Made by a program: the position numbers and the translations under genes. From a virus: a DNA stretch of 18,811 nt. The stretch is taken from the UHGV virus genome UHGV-0168127. The stretch is one strand, 5' to 3'. Under the pieces are notes generated by a model. It was given only the letters and a program-made list of their open reading frames with translations, did no database searches and was not told where the DNA came from. Of the stretch, positions 1 to 18,761 are shown piece by piece; the stretch's first letter is position 1; every line of letters starts with the position of its first letter.

Positions 1-57
1 TTGATTGGAATGATGTTTTTTAGATGTGAAAAATATTTTACCCGCTATTTTACCCAT
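1..57 (-). CDS. N-terminal fragment of an ORF running off the window start (MGKIAGKIFFTSKKHHSNQ...), identity unknown
   Basis: ATG at 57..55 on the - strand overlaps the stop of the excisionase-like gene (ATGGGTAA arrangement); open to position 1. An integrase would be expected here but the 19 visible residues are not diagnostic. Confidence 0.2.
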   Translation of the reverse strand, partial: MGKIAGKIFFTSKKHHSNQ

Positions 58-250
58 TGGCGCGGCTTAAGAGCTTATTTTTGAATTCACAATGGTCACG
101 ATATAACCATCTTGCTCGTCCGTGGATAACTTTGGCTTTTGGCAGGTCGCCGGACTTAATCCGGTCGTAGATGAAGGTTTTACCAAAGCCAGTATCGGCC
201 ATGATGAATTTCAAATCAACCAGTGAATCAGGCTGTAGTTCGTGTTGCAT
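50..250 (-). CDS. Excisionase-like small winged-helix DNA-binding protein (TorI/AlpA-type recombination directionality factor)
   Basis: 66-aa ORF from the track; size and basic helix-turn-wing region (GKTFIYDRIKSGDLPKAKVIHGRARWLYRDH) fit phage excisionases; sits at the distal end of the leftward operon after an intrinsic terminator. Family named from memory. Confidence 0.55.
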   Translation of the reverse strand: MQHELQPDSLVDLKFIMADTGFGKTFIYDRIKSGDLPKAKVIHGRARWLYRDHCEFKNKLLSRANG

Positions 251-292
251 GAGTGCTATCTCCGAATAGGGAATCGAACCTGCAAATCAGGC

Positions 293-320
293 AATAAAAA
301 ACCGCCATCAGACGGCTTGG
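293..320 (-). terminator. Intrinsic terminator-like hairpin plus T-run downstream of the left 55-aa gene
   Basis: On the - strand: GCCGTCTGATGGCGG hairpin (with G-U pairs) followed by TTTTTTATT; homologous position to the perfect hairpin at 17444..17468. Confidence 0.4.
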
Positions 321-475
321 TGTTCTTTCAGTTCTTCAATTCGAATATTGGTTACGTCTGCATGTGCTATCTGCGCCCACAGCATCCAGTGGTCATAGCA
401 GTCGTTGATGTTCTCTGCTTCGATAACTTTGTTGAATGGCTCTCCATTCCATTCACCTGTGACTCGGAAGTGCAT
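308..475 (-). CDS. Small conserved 55-aa lambdoid protein (left copy), function unknown
   Basis: Manual translation MHFRVTGEWNGEPFNKVIEAENINDCYDHWMLWAQIAHADVTNIRIEELKEHQAV; GGAG RBS 7 nt upstream of the ATG; about 90% identical to the 55-aa ORF at 17288..17455. Missed by the ORF track (below 60 aa); the track ORF 242..490 (+) is its antisense shadow. Confidence 0.6.
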   Translation of the reverse strand: MHFRVTGEWNGEPFNKVIEAENINDCYDHWMLWAQIAHADVTNIRIEELKEHQAV

Positions 476-485
476 TTATCATCTC

Positions 486-513
486 CATAAAACAAAACTC
501 GCCGTAGCGAGTT
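486..513 (-). terminator. Hairpin plus T-rich tract upstream of the 55-aa gene (terminator-like)
   Basis: On the - strand AACTCGC-TACG-GCGAGTT (7-bp stem) followed by TTGTTTTATGG; conserved in the right copy near 17250..17275. Confidence 0.35.
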
Positions 514-563
514 CAGATAAAAGAAATCCCCGCGAGTGCGAGGATAGTTACTTGTTCATATTA

Positions 564-1776: not shown

Positions 1777-2493
1777 TCACTCTCCTTTGATGCGAATGCC
1801 AGCGGAGCGGATTGCAGCGATGACTTCAGAAACTTTGTATGCCATTACCGTTTGGTAATCCTCGTGGAAATCTGTTCGATGAAGCATGCTGCTACGTTCC
1901 GGGAGCAGTATTTCCCGCGCTTCCAGTTCTGCAATGCGCTTCTCTGCGGCTTCCAGCTTCTCGCGCATATCGTCAACGTACTCGACCAGAGAACCGCCAG
2001 CAGGAATTTCGCACTCATCGACCAGTTGGAAGTAGATATCAGCTGCGGCCCGTGTGTTGCTATGCCTAGCGTCGCCCATCTCACCTTCACGAAGAGCATC
2101 GCGTTCGGCGGTAAGATTGGCTATTTTGCTGTCTTTGCCTTCCAGCTCAACGCGCAGCTTCCCTACCGTTAGCGCAATATCCTCGTTCTCCTGGTCGCGT
2201 GATTTGATGTATTGCTGGTTTCTTTCCCGTTCATCCAGTAGTGCCAGCACGGTAGCCGGATTGGCTGCGGCGATGAATTCAGCATTGGCCTGCTGTTCTA
2301 TTTGGAAATCTTCATCGAAACCGCTTTCTGTATGCGCTCCTTCAATTCTGAAAATGGGAATATATCCAGCAGCCTCGCGATGAATTAGCACATCATCACC
2401 ATCAAATCGGCCCTCTCCATATTCGAGCGACCACACACCACACGTTGCTTTCTCTGCCTTTTCACGCAGTGCCTGATAGTCAATCTTGCTCAC
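1777..2493 (-). CDS. Ead/Ea22-like family protein (about 238 aa, GTG start overlapping the upstream stop)
   Basis: Track ORF trimmed to the GTG at 2493 (GTGA overlap with the stop of the 2490..3176 gene). N-terminal [15 protein letters not shown] and ANPATVLALLDE motifs are paralogous to the ORF at 15177..15545. Confidence 0.5.
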   Translation of the reverse strand: MSKIDYQALREKAEKATCGVWSLEYGEGRFDGDDVLIHREAAGYIPIFRIEGAHTESGFDEDFQIEQQANAEFIAAANPATVLALLDERERNQQYIKSRDQENEDIALTVGKLRVELEGKDSKIANLTAERDALREGEMGDARHSNTRAAADIYFQLVDECEIPAGGSLVEYVDDMREKLEAAEKRIAELEAREILLPERSSMLHRTDFHEDYQTVMAYKVSEVIAAIRSAGIRIKGE

Positions 2494-3176
2494 TGGTTGC
2501 CTCCTTTGCGAAGCTCTGCGGCGAAATATTCGGCTCTTTTTACGCATTCTTCATAAGCAGCTGCATCAGCAACATCCTCATCAATTAGAGTAAAATCTCG
2601 CTCACCTCTACACCACTGTGCAAACATCTCCACACCCTGCGACCGCACTTCAGCTAGGAAGGCGTCGGTGGCTGGGGTTTTGACAACAATGCTGTCACGC
2701 AGGATGAAGAAAGCATTGAGCATCCCTGTTTCCGGAATTTCAGCAGAATTAAAAGCATCTATCGCCAAGTCCATACTTGGACCAAGTGGCTGCGGATGTG
2801 CGCTTCGCAGAATCTCTTGCTCAGTGATTAGTGCTTGAATCTTTTCCACCAAGTCTGATGGCGAGACATCATCTGCGTCTTCCTGGAAGCCAAGCGCTGA
2901 ACGCACCGCCCGAGATTCAGACATTCTTTGGTATGCCTGTCCTGCTGACATGGAGTAGCGACCATTCTCCGCAGACAGCGCAGCGCACTTGGCCTCAAGG
3001 TTATCAATCGTGATTCCAGCAGAACGACACTCCAGCAACGCTGTTTCCAGTTTTGATTCGAGTTCACCGAACTTACGGACAAGATATTCAGCGTTTGTTT
3101 CGTTAACCTTTAAATCACTTGGGATGCATTTACCTTTAAGAAATCCATCCATCTCAATTAGTGACATTTGTTTCAT
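2490..3176 (-). CDS. Ea22-like protein (228 aa)
   Basis: Shares [11 protein letters not shown] and [12 protein letters not shown] motifs with the + strand ORF 13970..14584; position matches ea22 of lambdoid phages. Confidence 0.55.
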
Positions 3177-3337
3177 TTCTTCCCACTCCGCAACATCGCA
3201 TTCAGATATTTGTTTTGATTCACTGATGGAAAATAATTTCTCTTTAGCAATTCCTCTCTCGATGGCATTGGCTTTACGCGTTGGCGAATAATCATTTCTG
3301 CCGGAAGAATGCCGGGATTGTATGCAAGACCTCTCAT
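3173..3337 (-). CDS. Hypothetical small protein (54 aa)
   Basis: Manual [57 protein letters not shown]; AAAGAGGAA RBS; its stop overlaps the start of the Ea22-like gene (ATGA). Confidence 0.3.
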
Positions 3338-3353: not shown

Positions 3354-3668
3354 TTAATTTATTCGTATGCCTGCTCTTTCTTCATCGAGTTTTTTTAGCT
3401 TGTATCGCATAGCTCTTACTGAATAAATTGAGCGGCAGGTTGCAATTGCTATTTCTTCTGCAGAGAACTTACCGAAAAGTGATACTTCGGCTCTTGTCCA
3501 TCGTCTTCCACGAAGTCGGCTAACAATGTCAGCTCCAATCCTTGTTGCTTTCGCCATTACTGCTTTTTCAGTCCTTTCCAGTTTTTCAGCGATAACTTCA
3601 ACTGGCATTGTTGCCGCTACTTCTCGCAAGAAATCGACTTCCCATTTCTCCCAAGGAGTCTTTTTCAT
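3354..3668 (-). CDS. Hypothetical protein (104 aa), possibly DNA-binding
   Basis: Track ORF with a two-fold internal repeat around conserved Trp/Arg positions; no confident family assignment. Confidence 0.4.
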
Positions 3669-3679
3669 AGGCGATACCG

Positions 3680-4168
3680 TTATTTGATAAGAAGTGAAGG
3701 TTTCCCAACTTTGAGTTGAGCGCCGGGGATATTTATTCCTGCTTTTAGTTGGTGTTTGATTGCCAGTTTGTCGGCTTTAATTGTCGTTTCAAACTCAACG
3801 TATTCAGGAGGAATGGCGCTTGCGTCGATGATTTCTACAATTTCTGACGGTTTGCGGATTGTTACCTGGTGAATACCTGCTCGAATATTTTTCTTGCCAA
3901 CCATTTCAAGCGATGACGCTATATATGATTTGATGCTGTCAATCTTATTTTGGATTACTGCGGCTCGCTCATTCAGTGACTTTGCCTCTTCCTTGAGGCG
4001 TTCAGCATAACCAGATTCATTTTTAATAATGGCAAGAAGTTGCTCTATTTTATCGGTAAATTCTCCTTCCATGCCTTCTATTGTGTCAGCAATCATCTCT
4101 GGTTCTAAATCTGAATCCATCAATTTTGCGTATTCATTGGCAATTTCATACAGTTTGCTCACTGGCAA
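3680..4168 (-). CDS. Siphovirus Gp157-family protein (162 aa)
   Basis: Length and acidic N-terminal helix followed by a K-rich coiled coil match the Gp157 family; overlaps and is co-oriented with the RecT gene as in other RecT modules. Confidence 0.65.
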   Translation of the reverse strand: MPVSKLYEIANEYAKLMDSDLEPEMIADTIEGMEGEFTDKIEQLLAIIKNESGYAERLKEEAKSLNERAAVIQNKIDSIKSYIASSLEMVGKKNIRAGIHQVTIRKPSEIVEIIDASAIPPEYVEFETTIKADKLAIKHQLKAGINIPGAQLKVGKPSLLIK

Positions 4169-5057
4169 CCTCCAGTTTCGCTTTGCATTCTATGTAAATG
4201 GCTTGTACGTTCTGCTGCAATTTCATTCCAGATGTCAGGCGATATGCTTCTGCAAAATATCGCTTCAAATCATCCATGTTTTCTGCCTGAGCCATTTCAT
4301 CGCAAAGAAGTTGTGCTTTATCCATTATTTCCTGCTGGCGTTTCCGTTCATCTTCGCGGATATCTTCCTCTGATTTGTGCGGCATAACTGGTTCGGTCCA
4401 CACGCCTTCTTCTTCGTTTAGTACGTGAATAGCACTATCAAGGCGTGATGCCTTAGGCCAATACTTGCTTGCACGCTTTACGACTGTCTTTCGCGCCATC
4501 TCATTCCAGTGATTTACCCATGGTCCTTTATCGCTGAATGCCGCCTTGCTTGTTTTCCTTACAGCCTCAATTTCAGCCAGACTCATCTCTTCCGTTAGAT
4601 AATCACCTGCTGGCGTCTTAACTGTGCAGTAAACGCCAACGATATCACCACGGTCACCGAAGGCGTTGTATTTATGGGTTGGTGCTTTATCAAGCCCGTT
4701 TGACTCATAGGTATCGTTAGCATGAACAAGTTTTGCCTGACCCCATGAGATAACACCAGACTCCATTGCAATATGGAGCAATCCCATATAGCTGATATCA
4801 AGGCACACCATGCCGTCGCGAGGAACCAGATAAGCCAGTTTGCTGGCCGGGTTTAAGGTGATGCCGATCGCCGCAACATTGATGATGGCGTTCTGTGCGC
4901 TGGTTGGATTTGCCAGTGCTGTTTTAGCCAGGTAATCGTTTTTCTGGAAATACTGAATTGCAAACTGGCTTTCCTTAGCCCATGTCACCGTCTGTTCAGT
5001 CAATGCTCCGCAGAATAACTGCTCCTGCTGTTTAACGAATTCAACGATATTGCTCAT
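4146..5057 (-). CDS. recT: RecT-family single-strand annealing recombinase (303 aa)
   Basis: GPWVNHWNEMARKTVVKRASKYWP closely resembles the conserved RecT segment GPWVTHWEEMAKKTAIRRLFKYLP; gene sits where lambda has bet. Confidence 0.8.
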   Translation of the reverse strand: MSNIVEFVKQQEQLFCGALTEQTVTWAKESQFAIQYFQKNDYLAKTALANPTSAQNAIINVAAIGITLNPASKLAYLVPRDGMVCLDISYMGLLHIAMESGVISWGQAKLVHANDTYESNGLDKAPTHKYNAFGDRGDIVGVYCTVKTPAGDYLTEEMSLAEIEAVRKTSKAAFSDKGPWVNHWNEMARKTVVKRASKYWPKASRLDSAIHVLNEEEGVWTEPVMPHKSEEDIREDERKRQQEIMDKAQLLCDEMAQAENMDDLKRYFAEAYRLTSGMKLQQNVQAIYIECKAKLEVASEQTV

Positions 5058-5365
5058 GCAGCTTCTCCAAAAATGTGTCTGCGTTTGAATATTGCGAAGG
5101 CATATTCAGCCTTAACTCTTTCGGTTATTGCATCCCAGAACCATTCAGCGGCTTTTTCCTGATAGTTACAGTCATCATCTTCCAGCCAGTCGATAGCGTC
5201 CTTAGTGTGTTCATCTGGTTTATATGAGCGAAGCATTTCGCTTATTGGGTCGCAACGTTTGCAGAGGCGATCAACTTCACTGTTGATTCGTTCGTAATCT
5301 TCATCAGTAAAACTTGCGATTATTTGCGATATTTCACGCTTATCATTCAGAGTCAGAATCATCAT
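5054..5365 (-). CDS. Hypothetical acidic protein (103 aa) at the gam position
   Basis: Start overlaps the small-ORF cluster upstream and its stop overlaps the recT start (ATGA); acidic C-terminal half; no family recognised. Confidence 0.45.
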   Translation of the reverse strand: MMILTLNDKREISQIIASFTDEDYERINSEVDRLCKRCDPISEMLRSYKPDEHTKDAIDWLEDDDCNYQEKAAEWFWDAITERVKAEYAFAIFKRRHIFGEAA

Positions 5366-5446
5366 CTTTCTCCTGTTCTTTGTGCTGATTGAGCATTTTG
5401 TTCATCTGACGAATGAATTCTTCGTCTGACCAGTTATCTGTAAAAC

Positions 5447-5599
5447 TCATTTCCTGCGATACCACGGAAGGTTGATAGCTGATTTCATCGCTTTATTTGC
5501 TTCAAGCCACATTTTTGAATCACCAATAAATCGGGCTATTACTGCTTTGTTCTGTGCTGCACGAAGCATCTGGTGATTGATGGCTATTTCATTGCGCAT
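5447..5599 (-). CDS. kil: Kil-like small protein (50 aa), putative host cell-division inhibitor
   Basis: Manual ORF MRNEIAINHQMLRAAQNKAVIARFIGDSKMWLEANKAMKSAINLPWYRRK; overlaps the 3' end of cIII as kil does in lambda; the IA.FIGD..M segment matches my recollection of lambda Kil (TIATFIGDEKMF). Confidence 0.45.
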   Translation of the reverse strand: MRNEIAINHQMLRAAQNKAVIARFIGDSKMWLEANKAMKSAINLPWYRRK

Positions 5600-5715
5600 A
5601 ATAAGACCTCAACTCTTTTCCATCCGTCACGTAATTTACGGGTGATTCGTTCAAGTAAAGATTCATTTAGTTGGAAGGCACCCATGCGAGCGCCTCCCGC
5701 GATTGCGTAAATCAT
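5584..5715 (-). CDS. cIII: CIII-like protein (43 aa), putative FtsH inhibitor
   Basis: Manual ORF MIYAIAGGARMGAFQLNESLLERITRKLRDGWKRVEVLLCAMK with AAGGAA RBS; ESLLERITRKLRDGWKR matches the conserved core of lambda CIII as I recall it. Confidence 0.65.
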   Translation of the reverse strand: MIYAIAGGARMGAFQLNESLLERITRKLRDGWKRVEVLLCAMK

Positions 5716-5739: not shown

Positions 5740-6741
5740 TTAGTAGGTTATTTTTGTTGCGAATACTTCGCCTTTTACGATGGCTGTTATGATATTTTTA
5801 GCAACATCTTCTGATGCGCCAACCTTGATAAGGTCAGCAAGTATTTTGTTATTTACTTCTTTCCGGTGAGCTTTATCCTTTGCTCTACGCTCTTCTTCGT
5901 CCTTGATTCTTTTTTCTTCTGCTATTCTGGCTTGCTCTTTTGCTTCAGCCTCGCGCAGGATTCGTTCTGCCTCCTCCTGTGCTTTACGGCGTTCTGCTTC
6001 AATTGCCGCATGCTTTTCTCTTTCAGCTCGTTCTGCTGCCTCTTTTGCTTCGCGCTGTGCTCGTTGCTCGGCTTCAATGCGTTCACGCTCTGCACGTTCC
6101 GCTGCGGCCTTAGCTTCTGCTTCACGGCGCGCTGCGGCTTCAATCTCTGCTTTGTGCTTCGCTTCGGCATCGCGTCGGGCTTGCTCTGCCGCTTCACTCT
6201 TAATGCGCTCTTCATGCTCACGTTGAGCCTGTTCCGCCTGGCGGCGCTGCTCTTCGCGGTCACGGTCGAAATCCTTGTTCATCAGCAGAGCCATTTCGTG
6301 GTCTGCTTCGAACTTGGCCGCCAACTCCTGATCGAACTTGATGTTCATTTCCAGCGCTTCGGCGTGCAACGCGTTCATGGCTTCTTCAGCCTTAATGCGC
6401 TCCTGCTCGGCTTCCCATTCGGTGAGTGGGCGGCGGGTGGCATCACGTAGCTCGTCGCAGGCATCAACGAAACGCTTAATTTCCGCCTCAGCGGGGCGCA
6501 CAGCCTCTTTCAGGCGCTTCAGGTACTCACGCCCCGGCTTTTCGATTGCCGTCTTGCTGCGCGACACCTGCGCCGCCAGAGAGGCGACACGGTCACGGCC
6601 TTTCTTCGTTGACAGGTCCGGCACTTCGTTTACTGCCTGGCGGATTTGCTCGAGGTAAGCGTCAAGGCCGCCCGCTACGTAAAGCGCTGGCGCCTGCTCC
6701 GGCGTGATTTCGATGACAGTTAAGTCCATTACTTCGCTCAT
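5740..6741 (-). CDS. Coiled-coil protein (about 333 aa) with a long E/A/R/K-rich repetitive C-terminal half
   Basis: Track ORF 5740..6849 trimmed to the ATG at 6741 (AGGAGA RBS), because the upstream part is occupied by another small gene; low-complexity charged repeats generate the many shadow ORFs on both strands in 5866..6658. Confidence 0.55.
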   Translation of the reverse strand: MSEVMDLTVIEITPEQAPALYVAGGLDAYLEQIRQAVNEVPDLSTKKGRDRVASLAAQVSRSKTAIEKPGREYLKRLKEAVRPAEAEIKRFVDACDELRDATRRPLTEWEAEQERIKAEEAMNALHAEALEMNIKFDQELAAKFEADHEMALLMNKDFDRDREEQRRQAEQAQREHEERIKSEAAEQARRDAEAKHKAEIEAAARREAEAKAAAERAERERIEAEQRAQREAKEAAERAEREKHAAIEAERRKAQEEAERILREAEAKEQARIAEEKRIKDEEERRAKDKAHRKEVNNKILADLIKVGASEDVAKNIITAIVKGEVFATKITY

Positions 6742-6811
6742 GGTTTCTCCTGAAATTTGGATGTGCAGATCCCGCCCGCTTTTAGCCAGGCCGATCGGTT
6801 GAATAGGGGAA

Positions 6812-6952
6812 TTAGGCTGTTTTTCTATGCCACGGATAACCGATGGCAACCTTCATTTCGTCGTAGGCTGCCATCCACATGGCGCCATCACCGATAAACA
6901 GGGCAATGGCTGCTTTGCTCTGCGCGGCGCGCAGCAGGTGATGATTGATCAT
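6812..6952 (-). CDS. Kil-like paralog (46 aa)
   Basis: Manual ORF MINHHLLRAAQSKAAIALFIGDGAMWMAAYDEMKVAIGYPWHRKTA; start overlaps the upstream stop (ATGA); clearly paralogous to the ORF at 5447..5599. Confidence 0.4.
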   Translation of the reverse strand: MINHHLLRAAQSKAAIALFIGDGAMWMAAYDEMKVAIGYPWHRKTA

Positions 6953-9441: not shown

Positions 9442-10146
9442 TTAACCGTGTTTTCTGTATGTCTGAGGCATGCTACCAATCACCTTGCCGAATATGAGTA
9501 TCCTGTTCATTTCTTCTTTTTCGATTGGCTCCCACGGGCGATAAGTCTGATTGTCGGAGATGACCAACAGCTTATCTTTCATCTTCTGGAGGCGTTTAAC
9601 GTGGGAAGTATCGTCGTAGATAAAGGCGTAGATCCCGTCACCATCAAAATGTTGGACGCTGATGTCGACGAACAATAAGTCGCCTGGTTCAATGGTCCCG
9701 GACATGCTGTCTCCGCGAACATTAATGATTCTGATCTGCTCAGCCTTCCTGCCATTAAACATCCGACGAGCATCTTCCACTGAGTATTCCACGGATCTAA
9801 GCACCTCTACAAATTCGCTGTTGATGGCTCCTGGCCCGGCGCTTACGTAAAAGTCTAGCGCCTCAATGCGGAATGTGTCAGTAGGGGCCAGCTCTGTTTT
9901 CGGCTGCGAAATTGCGGGCATTTGACCATCTTCACGCATTGGGCCAACTCCGGTTGAAAGCCACTCAGTGCGAACGCCAAGCGCATTGGCGATCTCAACG
10001 ATTTTAGTTGAGCCTCGGGCATTGCCACTGGTCAGCCTCCAGATGGTGGGTTGAGCAACGCCAGACGCCTTAGCTAAAGCGCCCTGAGACATGCCAGATA
10101 GTTCCATCGCCTGATTCAGGCGTTCTGCAAGAGTTTCTTTTTTCAT
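9442..10146 (-). CDS. cI: CI-type repressor: N-terminal HTH plus C-terminal S24 (LexA-like) autopeptidase domain
   Basis: Track ORF trimmed to the ATG at 10146 (MKKETLAERL...); HTH segment MSQGALAKASGVAQPTIWRL; GDSM and KRL motifs consistent with a Ser/Lys catalytic dyad; divergent from the cro-like gene across an operator region. Confidence 0.85.
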   Translation of the reverse strand: MKKETLAERLNQAMELSGMSQGALAKASGVAQPTIWRLTSGNARGSTKIVEIANALGVRTEWLSTGVGPMREDGQMPAISQPKTELAPTDTFRIEALDFYVSAGPGAINSEFVEVLRSVEYSVEDARRMFNGRKAEQIRIINVRGDSMSGTIEPGDLLFVDISVQHFDGDGIYAFIYDDTSHVKRLQKMKDKLLVISDNQTYRPWEPIEKEEMNRILIFGKVIGSMPQTYRKHG

Positions 10147-10154
10147 GAGTTTTA

Positions 10155-10226
10155 ATTTATACGCTTGCGTATTGATGGTCAAAACACGTTTAGCTATTGC
10201 CTAAATCAATACGCATTGCTATTATC
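10155..10226. promoter_or_regulatory. OR-like operator and divergent promoter region (candidate pRM leftward and pR rightward)
   Basis: Palindrome ATACGCTTGCGTAT (10159..10172) and a related site near 10207..10226. Rightward promoter candidate: -35 TTGCCT (10197..10202), 17-nt spacer, -10 TATTAT (10220..10225). Leftward candidate: -35 TTGACC (complement of 10177..10182), -10 ATAAAT (complement of 10155..10160), placing the start at or near the cI ATG (leaderless, as for lambda pRM). Confidence 0.5.
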
Positions 10227-12209: not shown

Positions 12210-13632
12210 TTTCATGGCTGTACCACAAAACCTCGAAGCAGAGCAGAGCGTTATCGGTGGCCTGCTGCTGGATGATGACAACAGCGAGCGAGTCCAGAAG
12301 GTTCTGGCGATGCTCAAGCCTGAATCGTTCTACAGCCGACCTCACCAGCTGATCTTTGCCGAGATGCGCCAGATGTTCCGCGACAACAAGCCAGTCGATG
12401 GTCTGACATTGTTCGACGCGCTCGAAAGCAAAGGGCTCGCGGAGCAGGTAGGTGGCTTTGCTTACCTGGCGGAGATCGCCAAGAACACTCCCAGCGCTGC
12501 AAACATCGTGGCATACGCTGCGTCAGTCCGGGAAGCCGCAATGGAGCGCTACGGTATCAGCCGCCTGACCGAAGCTACTGAGCTGCTGTATTCCCGCAAT
12601 GGCATGAGCGCCACGCAGAAGTACGAGGCCATTCAGGGTATTTTCACCCAGCTCGCAGACCATTCAAAAACCGGTAGTCGCCGTGGGTTGCGGTCGTTCG
12701 GCGAGGTTATGGATGACTGGGTAGCAGATCTGGAGAAACGCTTTGACCCTTCAGGCGAACAGCGCGGCATGAGCACCGGCATCCCGTCACTCGACCGGCT
12801 GCTGGCGCCGAAAGGTCTGGTTAAAGGCTCTCTGTTCGTGATTGGCGCAAGGCCAAAGATGGGCAAGACAACCCTGTACGGTCAGATGGCGATCAACTGC
12901 GCGGTTCGTGAGAAAAAGCCAGCGCTGATGTTCAGCCTCGAAATGCCGGGCGACCAGATCCTCGAAAAACTGGTTGGTCAGAAGTCTGGAGTTAACCCGA
13001 GCATTTTTTACATGCCAGCCACGGATGACGCCGATGACCAGTACCAGGGCGATTACGACGGCGACTTTAAGAAGGCGATCGCCACCGCCGGGCGATTGAG
13101 TGAAATCGACATGCTGTACATCGACGATACTCCTGGCCTGTCACTGGCGCACATCGTTAGCGAAAGCCGCCGAATCAAGCGCGAGAAGGGCTGCGTAGGA
13201 ATGATTTTGGTTGACTACCTGACTCTGATGACCGCCGAAAAAGCCGACCGTAATGACCTTGCCTACGGGATGATCACCAAAGGGTTGAAGAACCTCGCTA
13301 AAGAGCTTGGCTGCGTCGTCGTGCTGCTGACCCAGCTCAACCGCGAACTGGAGAAGCGAGTGAATAAACGCCCGTTACCGAGCGATTCCCGCGACACAGG
13401 ACAGATTGAGCAGGACTGCGACTACTGGGTTGGTATCCACCGGGAAGGTGCTTTCGATGACAGCGTGCCGCCGGGAGAAACCGAGTTAATCCTGCGACTC
13501 AATCGCCACGGCAGTACCGGAACGGTTTATTGCAATCAGATCAACGGGGCAATTTACGACACAGACCAGCAGGCCGCCGCCGCAGAACGACGCGGGCGTG
13601 AGCAGCAGCCGAAAAAGAAAGGGGGATTCTGA
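12199..13632 (+). CDS. DnaB-family replicative helicase
   Basis: N-terminal EAEQSVIGGLLLD motif and Walker A GARPKMGKT typical of DnaB; start overlaps the initiator stop. Confidence 0.9.
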   Translation: MTADFMAVPQNLEAEQSVIGGLLLDDDNSERVQKVLAMLKPESFYSRPHQLIFAEMRQMFRDNKPVDGLTLFDALESKGLAEQVGGFAYLAEIAKNTPSAANIVAYAASVREAAMERYGISRLTEATELLYSRNGMSATQKYEAIQGIFTQLADHSKTGSRRGLRSFGEVMDDWVADLEKRFDPSGEQRGMSTGIPSLDRLLAPKGLVKGSLFVIGARPKMGKTTLYGQMAINCAVREKKPALMFSLEMPGDQILEKLVGQKSGVNPSIFYMPATDDADDQYQGDYDGDFKKAIATAGRLSEIDMLYIDDTPGLSLAHIVSESRRIKREKGCVGMILVDYLTLMTAEKADRNDLAYGMITKGLKNLAKELGCVVVLLTQLNRELEKRVNKRPLPSDSRDTGQIEQDCDYWVGIHREGAFDDSVPPGETELILRLNRHGSTGTVYCNQINGAIYDTDQQAAAAERRGREQQPKKKGGF

Positions 13633-13973
13633 TGACCATAACAATCCGCGGGCAGATTCTTGCAGCCCTGCGTAACAACCAGGGCCTGAACAGTGCTCGT
13701 ATTGCCAGCATGATCGGCATGACCACCAAAAAGATTTCCGGCCCGTTAAGTACGTTGTTTGCAGATGGCCTGATCGAGTTCGAAGGCAAGCACGGACAGC
13801 GGCTTTATCGGCTGACCGATTACGGCATGAAATACGCACCAGAAACAATCCCGGCTATGCCGAAGGGAAATTCGAAGCTGGTGCAGCGTACAGAGGCAAA
13901 CGTGATCTGCCAGGAGTGCCGCAACAGCGCGGCGATGAGAAGAATTTTAAGCGTATACGGGGTGAGAGCATGA
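13632..13973 (+). CDS. Winged-helix (MarR-like) putative DNA-binding protein (113 aa)
   Basis: Start overlaps the helicase stop (TGATG); HTH-like segment LNSARIASMIGMTTKKISGPLSTL. Confidence 0.4.
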   Translation: MTITIRGQILAALRNNQGLNSARIASMIGMTTKKISGPLSTLFADGLIEFEGKHGQRLYRLTDYGMKYAPETIPAMPKGNSKLVQRTEANVICQECRNSAAMRRILSVYGVRA

Positions 13974-14584
13974 AAAATAATACACAGCCAGCACTGAAAG
14001 AACGAATCGAAAAGGCACTTGAAGACTTCACCAAAGGCCGCGCCAGCATGCATGTTCCTCCGCTTGATACCGATGTTGATGTGGTGCTGGCGGAATGCAG
14101 TGACCGATTATCAGAGCTTAAAGCCAGATGCGCGGCGCTGGCTGCGGAGAATGCGATGTTGAAGCAACGGACACAGCAACTTATCGACATCATTAGCAAT
14201 ACTGACAATGACTACTGCATGTGTGGTTCTGCTATGAAAGACCACGTGCACAGCGGATGTGGTTATCCTACTGGCATGTTCGATTATTACTACAACCAGT
14301 GGCTGGAGTCAGATAACAAAACCCCAGCCACCGATGCTTTCCTGGCTGAAGTGAAGACTGAAGCACGCAAGGAGGGAGCTTACTTTGTGGCGAACAGAAT
14401 GCTGGCTGCCTGGGAAGCTGGTTTTATTGATGATACTGCGAAGAACGCCGCGGATATTGCCAGGATGATTATTACCTCTACTGAGTTTATGGCTAATGCG
14501 CCGGAAGGCGATTTTGACCGCTCATTCTCTGATGGCGTTCTCGAAGATATCGCCGCCCAGCTTCGCAAAGGAGTGCAGTCATGA
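13970..14584 (+). CDS. Ea22-like protein (204 aa), paralog of 2490..3176
   Basis: Track ORF 13916..14584 trimmed to the ATG at 13970 (ATGA overlap with upstream stop); shares ARCAALAAENAMLKQ and [12 protein letters not shown] motifs with the left-arm copy. Confidence 0.55.
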   Translation: MKNNTQPALKERIEKALEDFTKGRASMHVPPLDTDVDVVLAECSDRLSELKARCAALAAENAMLKQRTQQLIDIISNTDNDYCMCGSAMKDHVHSGCGYPTGMFDYYYNQWLESDNKTPATDAFLAEVKTEARKEGAYFVANRMLAAWEAGFIDDTAKNAADIARMIITSTEFMANAPEGDFDRSFSDGVLEDIAAQLRKGVQS

Positions 14585-15180
14585 GCAACAACATTCAAGT
14601 GCTGAAAGCTTATTACGTGCAGGGTGATGAGTACGGGATTATCCGTTTCGCTACAAGTAACGTCGTGGCTCGCCGTGAGGGTGCGAACGAACTGGAAGAG
14701 GAATTCAACTGCGTATCATGCAAGCGCTTTCATGGTGCTGATAAATATGCAGAACTTGGTCGCGTTCCTTCTCGCGTTCTGGTTGAAGAGTTTGGCTTTT
14801 GGCAAGAGTGCACCTATTGCAGATGTCACGTTGATGAAGAAACAGAAGGGCGCGTGTGGGTTGGCGATTCTGTTTATTGCGATATGGAGTGCGAGGCGCG
14901 CTGGATTAATCATCGCCTTGATTGCGAAGCGGAACGCAAGCGTACTCATGAGGCAGAGCAGGCAGCAATTGCGGAAGCGGAAGCAAAGTTCCCTGGAATT
15001 ACAGACGTCACGGCCTACATCGGCCACAAGAAAGACATCACGGTTTATTTTAGATTCCCTGGTGGATTAGAAAAGGCATCATGGACTGTTGGCGAGAATC
15101 ATGCGGGTACTAGTCACGATGATGGAGAGGCGTTCAAATCGTACATCAACTCAATTCGTCAAGTGGAGGCAGCCCAATGA
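14581..15180 (+). CDS. Cysteine-rich hypothetical protein (199 aa), possible zinc-binding
   Basis: CxxC...CTYCRCH...CDMEC cysteine clusters; translationally coupled to both neighbours. Confidence 0.45.
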   Translation: MSNNIQVLKAYYVQGDEYGIIRFATSNVVARREGANELEEEFNCVSCKRFHGADKYAELGRVPSRVLVEEFGFWQECTYCRCHVDEETEGRVWVGDSVYCDMECEARWINHRLDCEAERKRTHEAEQAAIAEAEAKFPGITDVTAYIGHKKDITVYFRFPGGLEKASWTVGENHAGTSHDDGEAFKSYINSIRQVEAAQ

Positions 15181-15545
15181 GCAACATCGACAAACAGGCG
15201 CTGCGTGAAATCGCAGCGGCAGCAGTTGGCGCACATGAGCGCCTTAGTGTTATGCCGCCTGATGACATTTTCGATATCTCACTGGCAGAAGGAACTCAGC
15301 TTGATGCAGATATCACTGCCTTGAACGCGCTGAACTCCGCAGCAAACCCCACTACCGTGCTGGCGCTGCTGGATGAGCTGGAATCCAAAGACAGGCGCAA
15401 CGCTGAGCTGGAGGCGAAACTCCAAGCCACTGACAAATTGCATGATAGCGCGTTCCGTCATGGTCTCCAGCATGGTTTTAGTTACGGTCAGACAGATGAT
15501 CAAGCAGGATTTGAGAAAGCCATCCAAGCGTATGGGCAGCAGTGA
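15177..15545 (+). CDS. Ead/Ea22-like N-terminal-domain protein (122 aa), paralog of 1777..2493
   Basis: MSNIDKQALREIAAAA and ANPTTVLALLDELE motifs. Confidence 0.5.
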   Translation: MSNIDKQALREIAAAAVGAHERLSVMPPDDIFDISLAEGTQLDADITALNALNSAANPTTVLALLDELESKDRRNAELEAKLQATDKLHDSAFRHGLQHGFSYGQTDDQAGFEKAIQAYGQQ

Positions 15546-15559
15546 AAAGGAGAGTGAGT

Positions 15560-15736
15560 ATGAAATACGAAATCCCGGAATCAGAAGATATTGAATGGCA
15601 GCAGGCTATGCTCCGTGAAATAGACAGCGCCCTTGACGTCTTGCGTGATGAGCATGAGCACGCAGTGGTGGTAGAAGAAATCATCAATGATATCACCGCG
15701 AGAATAGCATCACTCCGCGCGTACTCTGGATACTGA
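15560..15736 (+). CDS. Hypothetical small acidic protein (58 aa)
   Basis: Track ORF 15542..15736 trimmed to the ATG at 15560 preceded by AAGGAG. Confidence 0.35.
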   Translation: MKYEIPESEDIEWQQAMLREIDSALDVLRDEHEHAVVVEEIINDITARIASLRAYSGY

Positions 15737-15746
15737 GGACTAACCC

Positions 15747-16454
15747 ATGAGCACCTTCACCAAAGAGCAGTTAATCGAAAAGCTTCAGCACAGAATTTCT
15801 GTCGCATCAAGATTTCCGGAGTCAGAAAAAACGCAAATGGATCTTGAACTGGCGCGTATCGCGCTGGCATCACTCGAAGCGGAGCCCTACGGATATGTCC
15901 ATAAAGCAGCTTATGAGCAAGCAGGAAGTTGTGGATTATCGGGCGACCATGAAGCCTATCGAGATAGCTCAACTCACATCGCCGTTTACACCGCCACGCC
16001 AGCGCCGGTATCTGTGCCCGCTGCGATGGAAATTGATGATGACTTTGACAGCGCGTTTGAACACGGAAAAGCTGTCGGCTGGAACGCCTATCGCGCCGCC
16101 ATGCTTCAGGCCGAACCTGTAAGTAATAGTGATGAGTTACCGCTGGACTATCTGCAAGGACACAAAGACGGCCTGGAGTGGGCTGCACAATTGGCAGAAG
16201 CCAATCATCCGCAAACAGGTGACTGGTTGTACGACGACCAAATCGATCTTGCCAGGGCGATTCGCAAAGGTCCGGATATGCCTACTGTTCAGGCTGGCAA
16301 CTCTCCGGTAACTCCGGATGGTTCAGCTAACATATTGCGGCGCTGGTTAGCATTTGGTCGCGCAATGCAAAGTTCTGGCAGTCAGTTACCTCGCCACCTG
16401 ATTGCAGAAACCGAGTCCATGCTCGCAGCAGCACCGCAGCAGGAGGTGAAGTGA
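15747..16454 (+). CDS. Protein with DUF551-associated N-terminal domain (235 aa), paralog of the N-terminus of 1024..1581
   Basis: ELARIALASLE and GNSPVTPDG motifs shared with the left-arm DUF551-like protein; C-terminus differs. Confidence 0.45.
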   Translation: MSTFTKEQLIEKLQHRISVASRFPESEKTQMDLELARIALASLEAEPYGYVHKAAYEQAGSCGLSGDHEAYRDSSTHIAVYTATPAPVSVPAAMEIDDDFDSAFEHGKAVGWNAYRAAMLQAEPVSNSDELPLDYLQGHKDGLEWAAQLAEANHPQTGDWLYDDQIDLARAIRKGPDMPTVQAGNSPVTPDGSANILRRWLAFGRAMQSSGSQLPRHLIAETESMLAAAPQQEVK

Positions 16455-16642
16455 GTATGAGTGCATCACTTATAACCGCCTTCAATCAAAGTGCAAATCC
16501 AAGCAATGAGCAGGTTGTTGTGTTCGGCTGGATTGCTGAGTATTTCGAAAGCATTTTCGACGATGAATCCGCTAGGTATTGCAGGAATATTTCTGAATCA
16601 CTCAAAAATCAGGTTTCTGCTCAACAGGAGGTGAAGTCGTGA
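16451..16642 (+). CDS. Hypothetical small protein (63 aa)
   Basis: Start embedded in the conserved junction CAGGAGGTGAAGTGA; may begin at the ATG at 16457 instead. Confidence 0.35.
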   Translation: MSMSASLITAFNQSANPSNEQVVVFGWIAEYFESIFDDESARYCRNISESLKNQVSAQQEVKS

Positions 16643-16851
16643 GCAAGCACATCATCAAATATGACTATCGAGAGGGAGTTAAACTCCCTAAGCACGAGAT
16701 TGAGACATGGTGCGGTCATCGGCCAGGGTCATTCGAATGGCTTTTTCAGGATGCTCAGCATGCGCTATTGAGCATTGAGCAGGGAACGCTGCTTGTTCCT
16801 TGCAAGAATTGTCTGGCAGCAATCATCAAAACGGCGCAGGTGGTGAAGTGA
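16639..16851 (+). CDS. Hypothetical small protein (70 aa) with CxxC and CxxC-like cysteines
   Basis: GTG start overlapping the upstream stop in the second copy of the junction motif. Confidence 0.35.
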   Translation: MSKHIIKYDYREGVKLPKHEIETWCGHRPGSFEWLFQDAQHALLSIEQGTLLVPCKNCLAAIIKTAQVVK

Positions 16852-17129
16852 TGGACTCCTTCGCGAAATATACGATCATTGACTGGATAGCATTCCTTCA
16901 GGTTTTGCTCATCTGGTTTTATATGGCTTACAGGAGTGGGCAGTGGATTGTCAGTGTAGCCTGTAGCAGGGGATGGCGTTGGTGGAACCGAAAGAATAAA
17001 AAAGCACTGGCATTGGATTCGTTTTACGAAGCATTCAATCTTAACAGCCTTCAGCCTGGTTCTGTCATTGTAGTCACCACTCAAAGCGGCATGACCATTC
17101 AGATTCATAAACCAAAAGAGGAAAAATGA
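16851..17129 (+). CDS. Small membrane protein (92 aa, one predicted transmembrane helix)
   Basis: Track ORF 16800..17129 trimmed to the ATG at 16851 (ATGA coupling in the third junction copy); hydrophobic segment IIDWIAFLQVLLIWFYMAY. Confidence 0.4.
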   Translation: MDSFAKYTIIDWIAFLQVLLIWFYMAYRSGQWIVSVACSRGWRWWNRKNKKALALDSFYEAFNLNSLQPGSVIVVTTQSGMTIQIHKPKEEK

Positions 17130-17215
17130 TGTGGCCTATATGTGTTAATTGCGGACGGATGTGCCTATCTGGATGGTGCCGAAAGTGCGACAAATGCACG
17201 AAGCAAAGACAATAA
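17126..17215 (+). CDS. Cysteine-rich 29-aa peptide (zinc-ribbon-like)
   Basis: Manual ORF MMWPICVNCGRMCLSGWCRKCDKCTKQRQ with six cysteines in CxxC-like spacing; ATGA overlap with the upstream stop. Confidence 0.3.
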   Translation: MMWPICVNCGRMCLSGWCRKCDKCTKQRQ

Positions 17216-17287
17216 CAATCCTCGCACTCGCGGGGATTTCTTTTATCTGAACTCGCTACGGCGGGTTTTGTTTTATGGAGATGATAA

Positions 17288-17455
17288 ATGCACTTTCGAG
17301 TCACAGGTGAATGGAATGGAGAACCATTCAACAGGGTTATCGAAGCAGAGGACTTCAACGACTGCTATGACCACTGGATGATATGGGCGCAGATAGCACA
17401 TGCAGACGTAACCAATATTCGAATTGAAGAACTGAAAGAACACAAAACCGCCTGA
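17288..17455 (+). CDS. Small conserved 55-aa lambdoid protein (right copy), function unknown
   Basis: Manual ORF MHFRVTGEWNGEPFNRVIEAEDFNDCYDHWMIWAQIAHADVTNIRIEELKEHKTA; GGAG RBS; lies inside the 255-bp inverted repeat. Confidence 0.6.
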   Translation: MHFRVTGEWNGEPFNRVIEAEDFNDCYDHWMIWAQIAHADVTNIRIEELKEHKTA

Positions 17456-17468
17456 TGGCGGTTTTTTC
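17444..17468 (+). terminator. Rho-independent terminator between the 55-aa gene and xis
   Basis: AAAACCGCC-TGAT-GGCGGTTTT perfect 9-bp stem followed by TTTTTTC. Confidence 0.6.
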
Positions 17469-17494
17469 TTGCGTGTAATTGCGGAGACTTTGCG

Positions 17495-17713
17495 ATGTAC
17501 TTAACACTTCAGGAGTGGAACGCACGCCAGCGGCGCCCAAGAAGCCTTGAAACAGTTCGTCGATGGGTACGCGAGTGCAGGATATTCCCTCCTCCGGTTA
17601 AGGATGGAAGAGAGTATCTGTTCCACGAATCAGCGGTAAAGGTTGACTTAAATCGACCAGTAACAGGTAGCCTTTTGAAGAGGATCAGAAATGGGAAGAA
17701 GGCGAAGTCATGA
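17495..17713 (+). CDS. xis: Lambda-type excisionase Xis (72 aa)
   Basis: Translation MYLTLQEWNARQRRPRSLETVRRWVRECRIFPPPVKDG... matches phage lambda Xis as I recall it; overlaps the int start as in lambda. Confidence 0.9.
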   Translation: MYLTLQEWNARQRRPRSLETVRRWVRECRIFPPPVKDGREYLFHESAVKVDLNRPVTGSLLKRIRNGKKAKS

Positions 17714-18761
17714 GCGCCGGGATTTACCCCCTAACCTTTATATAAGAAACAATGGATATTACTGCTACAGGGACCCAAGGACGGGTAAAGAGTTCGGATT
17801 AGGCAGAGACAGGAGGATAGCAATTACTGAAGCAATACAGGCAAACATTGAGTTATTTTCAGGACACAAACACAAGCCTCTGACAGCAAGAATCAACAGT
17901 GATAATTCTGTTACGTTACATTCATGGCTTGATCGCTACGAAAAAATCCTGGCCAGCAGAGGAATCAAGCAGAAGACACTCATAAATTACATGAGCAAAA
18001 TTAAAGCAATAAGGAGGGGTCTGCCTGATGCTCCACTTGAAGACATCACCACAAAAGAAATTGCGGCAATGCTCAATGGATACATAGACGAGGGCAAGGC
18101 GGCGTCAGCCAAGTTAATCAGATCAACACTGAGCGATGCATTCCGAGAGGCAATAGCTGAAGGCCATATAACAACAAACCCGGTCGCTGCCACTCGCGCA
18201 GCAAAATCAGAGGTAAGGAGATCAAGACTTACAGCTGACGAATACCTGAAAATTTATCAAGCAGCAGAATCATCACCATGTTGGCTCAGACTTGCAATGG
18301 AACTGGCTGTTGTTACCGGGCAACGAGTCGGTGATTTATGCGAAATGAAGTGGTCTGATATCGTAGATGGATATCTTTATGTCGAGCAAAGCAAAACAGG
18401 CGTAAAAATTGCCATCCCAACAGCATTGCATGTTGATGCTCTCGGGATATCAATGAAGGAAACACTTGATAAATGCAAAGAGATTCTTGGTGGAGAAACC
18501 ATAATTGCATCTACTCGTCGTGAACCGCTTTCATCCGGCACAGTATCAAGGTATTTTATGCGCGCACGAAAAGCATCAGGTCTTTCCTTCGAAGGGGATC
18601 CGCCTACCTTTCACGAGTTGCGCAGTTTGTCTGCAAGACTCTATGAGAAGCAGATAAGCGATAAGTTTGCTCAACATCTTCTCGGGCATAAGTCGGACAC
18701 CATGGCATCACAGTATCGTGATGACAGAGGCAGGGAGTGGGACAAAATTGAAATCAAATAA
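17691..18761 (+). CDS. int: Lambda-type tyrosine integrase Int (356 aa)
   Basis: Translation MGRRRSHERRDLPPNLYIRNNGYYCYRDPRTGKEFGLGRDRRIAITEAIQ... essentially matches lambda Int from memory, including the C-terminal catalytic region (HELRSLSARLY...LLGHKSDTMASQY). Confidence 0.95.
   Translation: MGRRRSHERRDLPPNLYIRNNGYYCYRDPRTGKEFGLGRDRRIAITEAIQANIELFSGHKHKPLTARINSDNSVTLHSWLDRYEKILASRGIKQKTLINYMSKIKAIRRGLPDAPLEDITTKEIAAMLNGYIDEGKAASAKLIRSTLSDAFREAIAEGHITTNPVAATRAAKSEVRRSRLTADEYLKIYQAAESSPCWLRLAMELAVVTGQRVGDLCEMKWSDIVDGYLYVEQSKTGVKIAIPTALHVDALGISMKETLDKCKEILGGETIIASTRREPLSSGTVSRYFMRARKASGLSFEGDPPTFHELRSLSARLYEKQISDKFAQHLLGHKSDTMASQYRDDRGREWDKIEIK

What the first reader, a model, noticed from the sequence alone, without database searches (positions are those of the whole stretch)
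3680..5365. Recombination module is Gp157 plus RecT with no exonuclease partner; an unassigned acidic 103-aa protein sits at the gam position
RecT-family annealases are usually paired with a RecE or YqaJ-type exonuclease in the same operon. No ORF of suitable size or motif is present here; RecT is flanked by a Gp157-family protein downstream and a 103-aa acidic protein upstream, in the slot that is gam in lambda, which may be a nuclease inhibitor or a new accessory factor.
Basis: partly seen in the sequence, partly recalled or inferred. Interest (0 to 1): 0.5.

Follow-up and report, generated by a model that had tools for sequence, protein, structure and literature searches.

The report
Hidden Gam-like gene beside orphan RecT
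A small unannotated prophage protein sitting just upstream of a RecT recombinase that has no exonuclease partner has the same predicted fold, size, charge and gene position as phage lambda's Gam, so it is probably an unrecognised inhibitor of the host RecBCD nuclease.

Summary
On the minus strand the order is cIII, kil, a 35-aa ORF, the 103-aa acidic protein (5054-5365), RecT (4146-5057) and Gp157 (3680-4162). No YqaJ, RecE or DUF3799 exonuclease is present in the window, or in the complete genome of phage mEpX1, which carries the same module.

In all 95 contexts examined, the gene directly abuts the first recombination gene, whether that module is RecT+Gp157, RecT+YqaJ or RecE-like+RecT. In phage Dewey, lambda gam replaces it at exact gene borders. 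Five of six phages carrying it have no Chi sites (11.3 expected).

Most likely it is a divergent Gam-like RecBCD inhibitor; no experiment supports this yet. Calling Gp157 "Mu Gam-like" rests only on a PHROG label; my own tests were inconclusive. Exonuclease-less modules are already known (P22), and this one occurs in about 5% of complete E. coli genomes.

The parts
5584..5715 (-). cIII, the upstream landmark of the recombination locus
   Evidence: Pfam PF02061 Lambda_CIII, E 4e-15
5447..5599 (-). kil, inhibitor of septation
   Evidence: Pfam PF06301 E 1.7e-20; phrog_2055 E 1.2e-35
5343..5450 (-). 35-aa ORF (MSFTDNWSDEEFIRQM...). Its ATG overlaps the kil stop codon and its 3' end overlaps the start of the 103-aa gene.
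   Evidence: Translation. The first 16 aa are identical to HK75 gp33, and SDEEFI is shared with P22 Arf. Annotated as a CDS in Kapi1. Homology to HK75 ends near 5401.
5054..5365 (-). 103-aa acidic protein, a proposed divergent lambda Gam-like RecBCD inhibitor (phrog_3486). Its stop codon overlaps the recT start (GCATGA), with GGAGAAG as the recT ribosome-binding site.
4146..5057 (-). RecT-family single-strand annealing protein, 303 aa
   Evidence: PF03837 E 3.7e-32; phrog_148 E 5.9e-92; NCBIfam TIGR00616 above its cut-off
3680..4162 (-). Siphovirus Gp157-family protein, 160 aa from GTG 4162, in the slot that holds exo in lambda. Its role is unproven; PHROGs labels it 'Mu Gam-like end protection'.
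   Evidence: PF05565 E 1.4e-37; phrog_253 E 1.5e-53; nearly all listed homologues are 160 aa; GGAGG lies 6 nt upstream of the GTG. The relation to Mu Gam is not above shuffles.
3354..3668 (-). 104-aa basic protein (pI 10) that travels with the module in 79 of 84 loci. It is related to phage Mu gp9 and is not P22 Abc1.
   Evidence: phrog_323 and phrog_11492. BLASTP to Mu gp9 E 5e-5. No similarity to P22 Abc1 or Abc2. Architecture counts.
3173..3337 (-). DUF2737 small protein at the conserved distal end of the cassette
   Evidence: PF10930 E 6e-31; present in 78 of 84 loci

Best explanation
The locus is an exonuclease-less recombination cassette of a lambdoid prophage, transcribed from pL in the order cIII, kil, 35-aa ORF, 103-aa protein, RecT, Gp157, Mu-gp9-like protein, DUF2737. 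The 103-aa protein is a highly diverged relative of lambda Gam, recognisable by predicted fold but not by sequence models. I infer that it acts like Gam: a small acidic helical protein that blocks the DNA-end-binding site of RecBCD. That would protect linear phage DNA and rolling-circle tails and leave DNA ends to the phage pathway. It is translationally coupled to whichever recombination gene comes first. RecT then anneals single-stranded DNA. With no phage 5'-3' exonuclease present, that ssDNA would have to come from replication forks or from host resection such as RecJ with a helicase; this step is inference. Gp157 sits in the exo slot as a second accessory factor of unproven role, possibly end binding. 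What is shown: the gene content, the absence of an exonuclease, the fold match, the synteny, the cassette swap with lambda gam, and Chi avoidance. What is inferred: binding to RecBCD, dimer formation, and the source of ssDNA.
For: 2. Sequence. hhalign of the family against a lambda Gam alignment gives E 0.001, family columns 57-81 against GamS 58-82, with a shared motif [ST]K.AI....DDD..[YF]QE. The score of 22.9 compares with 10.9±2.0 (maximum 17.3) for 300 column shuffles and about 10.7 for reversed controls. Cross-controls (family against Mu Gam, Gp157 against lambda Gam) score 11-14. A forced global alignment is colinear over 94 columns.
3. Physical properties. Family members are about 102 aa, median pI 4.65, net charge -9. 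GamS-like proteins are 98 aa, pI 4.69, net charge -9.
4. Position. The gene sits directly downstream of cIII and kil and abuts the first recombination gene in all 11 diverse contexts and all 84 IMG/VR or genome loci. This holds with RecT+Gp157, RecT+YqaJ and DUF3799+RecT modules.
5. Cassette swap. Phage Dewey is 96.9% identical to the window up to the recT start (5059) and again from kil (5444). In between it carries lambda gam. None of 84 family loci has lambda Gam or Abc2 nearby.
6. Chi sites. Gally, Kapi1, SEN22, ENT47670 and Midgardsormr38 have zero Chi sites against 11.3 expected (Poisson P about 1e-5). They share at most 17% of their 31-mers, and none encodes Abc2, lambda Gam or Mu Gam. 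Three of them also lack Gp157. Bobay et al. 2013 (PMC3784561) found Chi avoidance to be specific to lambdoid phages that encode a RecBCD inhibitor.
7. The cIII-flanked recombination locus of lambdoid phages has been proposed as a hotspot for RecBCD manipulators. HK75 gp33, encoded between kil and the annealase gene, triggers OLD as RecBCD inhibitors do (bioRxiv 10.64898/2026.07.10.737580).
Confidence: 0.6

Rival explanations
1. The 103-aa protein is an accessory factor of the recombinase, like P22 Arf, and not a RecBCD inhibitor. It would help load or stimulate the annealase or exonuclease encoded just downstream.
For: In P22-like phages it occupies the arf slot (kil, arf, erf). hhalign of the family against P22 Arf aligns family columns 14-45 with Arf residues 8-37. 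The score is 18.6 against 9.5±1.9 (maximum 17.6) for 300 shuffles. It is tightly translationally coupled to the first recombination gene.
Against: The downstream partner differs between loci: RecT in some and a DUF3799 exonuclease in others. A specific protein partner is therefore unlikely. The whole-protein fold matches GamS. Lambda gam, not arf, replaces it in Dewey. The mechanism of Arf itself is unknown, so the two readings may not be exclusive; Arf could be a shortened relative.
Confidence: 0.15
2. The resemblance to Gam is convergence among small acidic helical proteins. The protein has some other target, such as another host nuclease (SbcCD, ExoI, a restriction or defence nuclease) or an anti-defence role. 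Gp157 would then be the end-protection factor of the module.
For: PHROGs labels Gp157 'Mu Gam-like end protection'. In Firmicutes phages, gp157-like and Mu gam-like genes alternate next to annealase genes (PMC8093625). Sequence models do not place the 103-aa family in the Gam family. mEpX1 keeps Chi sites. The locus has been proposed as a hotspot for anti-defence genes.
Against: GamS ranks first of 48,164 chains and is exactly the protein that synteny predicts. The in-register motif exceeds all shuffles. Three Chi-free phages carry the family but lack Gp157. Gp157 co-occurs with genuine lambda Gam in Dewey, so Gp157 does not simply substitute for Gam. My own tests of a Gp157 to Mu Gam relation did not exceed background (27 of 200 shuffles scored at least as high).
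Confidence: 0.2
3. An exonuclease partner does exist but lies elsewhere in the element or is supplied by another prophage, so the module is not truly without an exonuclease.
For: The window is a rearranged element that lacks the nin, Q, lysis and structural genes, so its gene content is incomplete.
Against: The complete, viable phage genome of mEpX1 carries the same module and has no YqaJ, RecE or DUF3799 homologue by annotation or tblastn. No exonuclease is annotated in the Kapi1 or Gally records. 81 of 84 loci show the family gene followed by RecT and Gp157 with no exonuclease within 3 kb.
Confidence: 0.05

Closest known systems
Phage lambda Gam (GamS; Pfam PF06064; PDB 2uuz), inhibitor of RecBCD
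   Different: Not detected by PF06064, by any PHROG Gam family or by HMMER. About 15% identity in the structural alignment. The N-terminal helix is predicted as two helices. Here it is associated with RecT and RecE-type modules, not with Bet and Exo. RecBCD inhibition has not been tested.
Phage P22 recombination module (arf, erf, abc1, abc2)
   Same: Exonuclease-less annealase module in the same pL position after kil. A small gene lies between kil and the annealase gene. The distal boundary is a DUF2737-type ORF. There is weak but above-background profile similarity between the family's N-terminal half and Arf.
   Different: The annealase is RecT, not Erf. There is no Abc2 or Abc1. Arf is 47 aa; this protein is 103 aa.
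Rac RecET and lambda Red (annealase plus 5'-3' exonuclease)
   Same: RecT-family annealase. Relatives of the 103-aa gene head complete RecT+YqaJ and DUF3799+RecT modules.
   Different: The exonuclease is absent here and Gp157 fills its slot. RacC, the gene upstream of recE in Rac, is unrelated to the family.
Siphovirus Gp157 (PF05565) and Mu Gam (PF07352, phrog_491)
   Same: The window protein is a clear PF05565 member. Gp157-like and Mu gam-like genes occupy equivalent positions beside annealase genes in Firmicutes phages (PMC8093625). In Mu, gam lies next to gp9, a relative of the 104-aa protein that lies next to Gp157 here.
   Different: Mu Gam falls in phrog_491, not phrog_253. Direct BLASTP and hhalign comparisons are not above shuffled background.
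HK75/HK446 gp33, an OLD trigger proposed to manipulate RecBCD (bioRxiv 10.64898/2026.07.10.737580)
   Same: Lies between kil and the annealase gene. The 35-aa ORF of the window shares its first 16 residues with gp33.
   Different: gp33 is 56 aa and is unrelated to the 103-aa family. The window copy diverges after residue 16, at a mosaic joint.

Membership tests
Lambda Gam family (PF06064) | Significant match to the family sequence model | tested here: not met
   No PF06064 hit for the window protein or for any of 34 family members, even at E up to 10. No Gam PHROG hit. The HMMER profile search of PDB sequences does not find Gam.
Lambda Gam family (PF06064) | GamS fold (all-helical monomer of about 98 aa) | tested here: met
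Lambda Gam family (PF06064) | Remote sequence relationship detectable by profile-profile comparison | tested here: inconclusive
   hhalign probability 21%, E 0.001, in register. The score exceeds all 300 shuffles, but the global alignment is not significant.
Lambda Gam family (PF06064) | Homodimer that binds RecBCD and blocks DNA-end binding | not testable with these tools
   No multimer prediction or biochemistry was available.
Lambda Gam family (PF06064) | Gene immediately upstream of the annealase gene in the pL operon, downstream of cIII and kil | tested here: met
   window; 95 contexts in all; precise swap with lambda gam in Dewey.
Lambda Gam family (PF06064) | Genomic signature of RecBCD inhibition: Chi avoidance in the carrier phage | tested here: inconclusive
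   Five of six carrier genomes have 0 Chi sites (11.3 expected), but mEpX1 has 6. The criterion is from PMC3784561.
RecT family (PF03837) | Match to the RecT model above the curated cut-off | tested here: met
   PF03837 111.9 bits against a cut-off of 24. TIGR00616 82.4 bits against a cut-off of 52.65.
Two-component annealase-exonuclease recombinase (Red, RecET) | A 5'-3' dsDNA exonuclease (YqaJ/lambda Exo or RecE/DUF3799) encoded in the same operon | tested here: not met
   No such domain in any ORF. tblastn of the exonuclease queries gives E of at least 0.3 in the window and at least 0.19 in complete mEpX1.
Siphovirus Gp157 (PF05565) | Full-length match to the family model | tested here: met
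   129.7 bits against a cut-off of 28.6, profile positions 1-162.
Mu Gam-like end-protection proteins (PF07352, phrog_491) | Detectable homology of Gp157 to Mu Gam | tested here: inconclusive
   The only support is the phrog_253 label. BLASTP E 0.54. hhalign E 0.06-0.12, and 27 of 200 shuffles score as high.
P22 Abc1 (as the Gally record annotates the 104-aa ORF) | Sequence similarity to P22 Abc1 | tested here: not met
   BLASTP finds no alignment at E up to 100 against Abc1 or Abc2.
P22 Arf | Sequence similarity to Arf | tested here: inconclusive
   hhalign probability 13%, score 18.6 against 9.5±1.9 for shuffles, with no shuffle of 300 as high. This was a single-sequence template covering only 30 columns.

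The most novel reading that the evidence does not exclude
phrog_3486 is an unrecognised, sequence-divergent branch of the lambda Gam fold. It would serve as the standard RecBCD inhibitor at the head of RecT and RecE-type recombination modules in prophages of Enterobacterales, about 5% of complete E. coli genomes. P22 Arf may be a shortened relative of its N-terminal half. If so, many lambdoid phages scored as 'recombinase-positive, inhibitor-negative' do encode an inhibitor. These proteins should then also trigger defences that guard RecBCD (retrons Ec48 and Se72, P2 OLD). The combination of a Gam-like protein, RecT and Gp157 would be a self-sufficient recombination system that needs no phage exonuclease.
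Probability: 0.35. Interest if true: 0.6.

Novelty: new variant of a known kind. Interest (0 to 1): 0.5.

Why it matters
If the 103-aa family inhibits RecBCD, a widespread class of hypothetical prophage proteins gains a function. Surveys that classify phages by Pfam Gam or Abc2 hits (for example the Chi-avoidance analysis of Bobay et al. 2013) would be missing an inhibitor family. The family would be a new candidate trigger for defence systems that guard RecBCD. It would also offer a compact Gam alternative for recombineering alongside RecT-type annealases. The RecT+Gp157 arrangement without an exonuclease gives a tractable case for asking how annealases obtain ssDNA without a dedicated nuclease and what Gp157 does. 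None of this overturns current ideas; it extends a known strategy to a family that sequence searches had not recognised.

Tried and rejected
- Foldseek against the PDB with the first, low-confidence model found nothing below E 2.7.
- A HMMER profile of the family against PDB sequences gave only noise.
- Pfam and PHROG scans of all 34 family members at E up to 10 gave no consistent second family.
- RacC, the gene upstream of recE in Rac, is unrelated to the family.
- HK75 gp33 is unrelated to the 103-aa family.
- The annotation of the 104-aa ORF as P22 Abc1 was rejected.
- Gp157 against Mu Gam: BLASTP, hhalign with a 15-sequence Gp157 alignment and a 22-sequence Mu Gam alignment, and a PDB profile search were all at background.
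- The genome-contig scan returned one locus only, from Enterobacter adelaidei.
- An Arf query was too short for the search for related loci.
- Literature searches for mEpX1 with RecBCD, and for Gp157 with RecT, found no functional study of this module.
- The conserved C-terminal E-A-A of the family is explained by overlap with the ribosome-binding site and ATG of the downstream gene. I did not treat it as a functional protein motif.
Full report
**What is in the sequence.** The window is the early region of a lambdoid enterobacterial prophage. A leftward operon runs on the minus strand from about 9,000 down to 50. The repressor is at 9442..10182(-). A rightward operon (cro-like gene, CII-like gene, O-like gene, DnaB) starts at about 10,165. 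Within the finding's coordinates the gene calls are correct.
- Gp157: PF05565, E 1.4e-37.
- RecT: PF03837, E 3.7e-32.
- The 103-aa ORF has no Pfam hit and no NCBIfam hit. It belongs to phrog_3486, 'unknown function'.
- The 103-aa protein is acidic, pI 4.65.
- Upstream are kil and cIII.

The order is therefore cIII, kil, a 35-aa ORF, the 103-aa gene, recT, gp157. This parallels lambda's cIII, kil, gam, bet, exo. The 103-aa gene ends in GCATGA, which overlaps the recT ATG, and its last codons contain the recT ribosome-binding site. Gp157 most likely starts at GTG 4162 behind GGAGG, giving 160 aa, the length of nearly all listed homologues. Several public records annotate a shorter 146-aa form.

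**No exonuclease.** Pfam, PHROG and NCBIfam scans of about 40 ORFs on both strands found no YqaJ, RecE/DUF3799 or other PD-(D/E)xK nuclease. tblastn of four YqaJ proteins, three DUF3799 proteins, E. coli RecE and the 189-aa SEN22 protein encoded beside its exonuclease, against all six frames, gave nothing below E 0.3.

The window is not a complete phage, so I checked complete relatives. Phage mEpX1 carries the same four genes at 95-99% protein identity. It has no exonuclease by annotation or by tblastn. The Gally and Kapi1 records tell the same story by annotation. Among 84 IMG/VR and genome loci holding a family member, 81 show the family gene followed by RecT and Gp157 with no exonuclease within 3 kb. 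The three-gene block is present at 80% coverage or more in 264 of 5,426 complete E. coli genomes. P22 shows that an annealase module without an exonuclease is an established design.

**The 103-aa protein: family and context.** An exhaustive HMMER search of 1.84 billion cluster representatives found only 54 clusters. Those I checked come from Enterobacterales (Escherichia, Salmonella, Cronobacter, Erwinia, Enterobacter) or their phages. Most members are about 100-105 aa and acidic (median net charge -9).

In every context I could examine, the gene directly abuts the first gene of a recombination module, and the module type varies.
- RecT+Gp157: the window and L012.
- RecT+YqaJ exonuclease: ENT47670, Midgardsormr38, L008 and L011.
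- DUF3799 (RecE-like) exonuclease, with RecT following where the sequence extends that far: L007, L013 and L010. SEN22 has the exonuclease followed by a 189-aa protein of unknown function.

The gene behaves as an independent mosaic cassette. SEN22 shares window 5054-5450 at 97.5% identity and then switches, exactly at the recT start, to an exonuclease module. Phage Dewey is 96.9% identical to the window through recT up to position 5059 and again from kil at 5444. Between those points it carries a lambda-type gam plus one small ORF. None of the 84 loci has lambda Gam or Abc2 nearby.

**The 103-aa protein: fold and sequence.**
- A second model from 36 diverse family members, built without templates, is confident (pLDDT 91.2, pTM 0.77).
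- Profile-profile comparison with a lambda Gam alignment gave a local match at the same relative position in both proteins (family columns 57-81, GamS 58-82).
- The score of 22.9 exceeded all 300 column-shuffled controls (10.9±2.0, maximum 17.3) and the reversed controls. Unrelated cross-comparisons scored 11-14.
- A forced global alignment is colinear but not significant.
- Sequence models do not see the relationship: PF06064, the PHROG families and a HMMER search of PDB sequences all miss it.

I therefore treat the protein as a fold-level relative of Gam and not as a member of the Pfam family.

**An indirect functional test.** Bobay et al. 2013 reported that lambdoid phages encoding Gam or Abc2 avoid Chi (median O/E 0-0.3). 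Phages with a recombinase but no inhibitor over-represent it (about 2.5) (PMC3784561). I counted GCTGGTGG in six phages that carry the family.
- None of the six encodes Abc2, Abc1, lambda Gam or Mu Gam.
- Gally, Kapi1, SEN22, ENT47670 and 76% of the Midgardsormr38 genome have zero sites against 11.3 expected under a trinucleotide model (Poisson P about 1e-5).
- These genomes share at most 17% of their 31-mers.
- SEN22, ENT47670 and Midgardsormr38 also lack Gp157.
- mEpX1 is an exception, with six co-oriented sites, five of them in the structural-gene region and one at 40,060.

The result fits an inhibitor being present in most carriers. It is not clean, and it does not prove which gene is responsible.

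**Gp157 and the neighbouring genes.** PHROGs labels phrog_253 'Mu Gam-like end protection'. A survey of Firmicutes phages notes that gp157-like and Mu gam-like genes occupy equivalent positions beside annealase genes (PMC8093625). My own tests did not confirm homology. Mu Gam falls in phrog_491. BLASTP gives E 0.54. hhalign between a 15-sequence Gp157 alignment and a 22-sequence Mu Gam alignment was matched or beaten by 27 of 200 shuffles. The role of Gp157 is therefore open. It co-occurs with genuine lambda Gam in Dewey, so it is not simply a substitute for Gam.

The 104-aa basic protein downstream is called 'Abc1' in the Gally record, but it has no similarity to P22 Abc1 or Abc2. It is related to Mu gp9 (E 5e-5), which in Mu lies next to gam.

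**Most likely mechanism.** The 103-aa protein would neutralise RecBCD as Gam does. RecT would anneal ssDNA exposed at replication forks or by host resection. Gp157 would be a further accessory factor of unknown mechanism. The gene content, fold match, synteny, cassette swap and Chi pattern are shown. RecBCD binding, dimerisation and the source of ssDNA are inferred. My confidence that the protein inhibits RecBCD is about 0.6. My confidence that it shares the Gam fold is higher.

**Rivals.**
- An Arf-like accessory role (0.15). It is supported by the P22 slot and by an above-background profile match of the family's N-terminal half to P22 Arf (score 18.6 against 9.5±1.9). It is weakened by the variable downstream partner.
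- Convergence of fold with a different target, and Gp157 as the end protector (0.2).
- A hidden exonuclease elsewhere in the element (0.05), largely excluded by the complete mEpX1 genome.

**Comparison with what is known, and novelty.** The closest known systems are lambda Gam, the P22 arf-erf-abc module, RecET and Red, and the recently reported HK75 gp33. HK75 gp33 is an OLD trigger encoded between kil and the annealase gene and is proposed to manipulate RecBCD (bioRxiv 10.64898/2026.07.10.737580).

I found no paper or annotation that assigns a function to phrog_3486. RefSeq calls it 'hypothetical protein'. The finding is best described as a new variant of a known kind: a Gam-fold protein too diverged for sequence models, heading RecT and RecE-type modules, here in a version without an exonuclease. 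Interest is moderate. It is not surprising in principle, but it is widespread, testable in a day with standard RecBCD assays, and relevant to classifying phage inhibitors and to defence triggers.

Noticed in passing
window 5343-5450 (-): A 35-aa ORF lies between kil and the 103-aa gene, with its ATG overlapping the kil stop codon. Its first 16 residues (MSFTDNWSDEEFIRQM) are identical to HK75 gp33, a 56-aa protein recently reported to trigger the OLD defence as RecBCD inhibitors do. P22 Arf shares SDEEFI. Homology to HK75 stops near 5401, so a mosaic joint lies inside this small gene. It may be a remnant or a functional short variant.
   Followed up: partly
window 3354-3668 (-): The 104-aa basic protein next to Gp157 is annotated in the phage Gally record as 'Anti-RecBCD protein 1, similar to P22 Abc1', but it has no detectable similarity to P22 Abc1 or Abc2. 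It is instead related to phage Mu gp9 (BLASTP E 5e-5; both in phrog_323). In Mu, gp9 lies directly next to gam.
   Followed up: partly
window 4130-4185 (-): Gp157 most likely starts at GTG 4162, with GGAGG 6 nt upstream, giving 160 aa. The start overlaps the 3' end of recT by 17 nt. Nearly all listed homologues are 160 aa. The mEpX1, Gally and Dewey records annotate a 146-aa form starting at an internal ATG.
   Followed up: yes
window 1-550 and 13632-18811: The window has an odd architecture. Directly after dnaB, the plus strand carries ea-type genes (Ead/Ea22 at 15177, DUF4752 at 16800), a lambda-type Xis (17495-17713) and Int (17691-18761). There are no nin, Q, lysis or structural genes. The left end carries a Kapi1-type excisionase (50-250, minus strand). 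A 263-nt inverted repeat (288-550 and 17213-17475, 94% complementary) links the two ends. Paralogous ea genes (2490-3176 on the minus strand, 13916-14584 on the plus strand; both phrog_614) face each other. It looks like two integrase-proximal prophage arms joined head to head, which could be a recombinant or defective prophage or an assembly chimera. No complete E. coli genome holds the window as a whole.
   Followed up: partly
L181 (phage mEpX1, complete genome): mEpX1 has six Chi sites, all on one strand (positions 2050, 12134, 14142, 15729, 16824, 40060; O/E 2.1). Five other phages carrying the 103-aa family have none. This suggests that mEpX1's structural arm came from a lineage that uses Chi, or that RecBCD is not fully inhibited in this phage.
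   Followed up: partly
window 5740-6849 (-): A 369-aa protein (333 aa from the internal Met) lies just upstream of cIII. It is highly charged and rich in Ala, Glu, Lys and Arg, with predicted coiled-coil or repeat character, in a local G+C peak of 57%. It belongs to phrog_1376 (unknown function) and is annotated 'cell envelope biogenesis protein TolA' in E. coli genomes. Similar genes occupy the same slot in SEN22 and Midgardsormr38.
   Followed up: no
L002 (phage Dewey) 2881-4689: Phage Dewey combines a lambda-type Gam with the same RecT and Gp157. Gp157 therefore coexists with a genuine RecBCD inhibitor and probably has a different job.
   Followed up: partly
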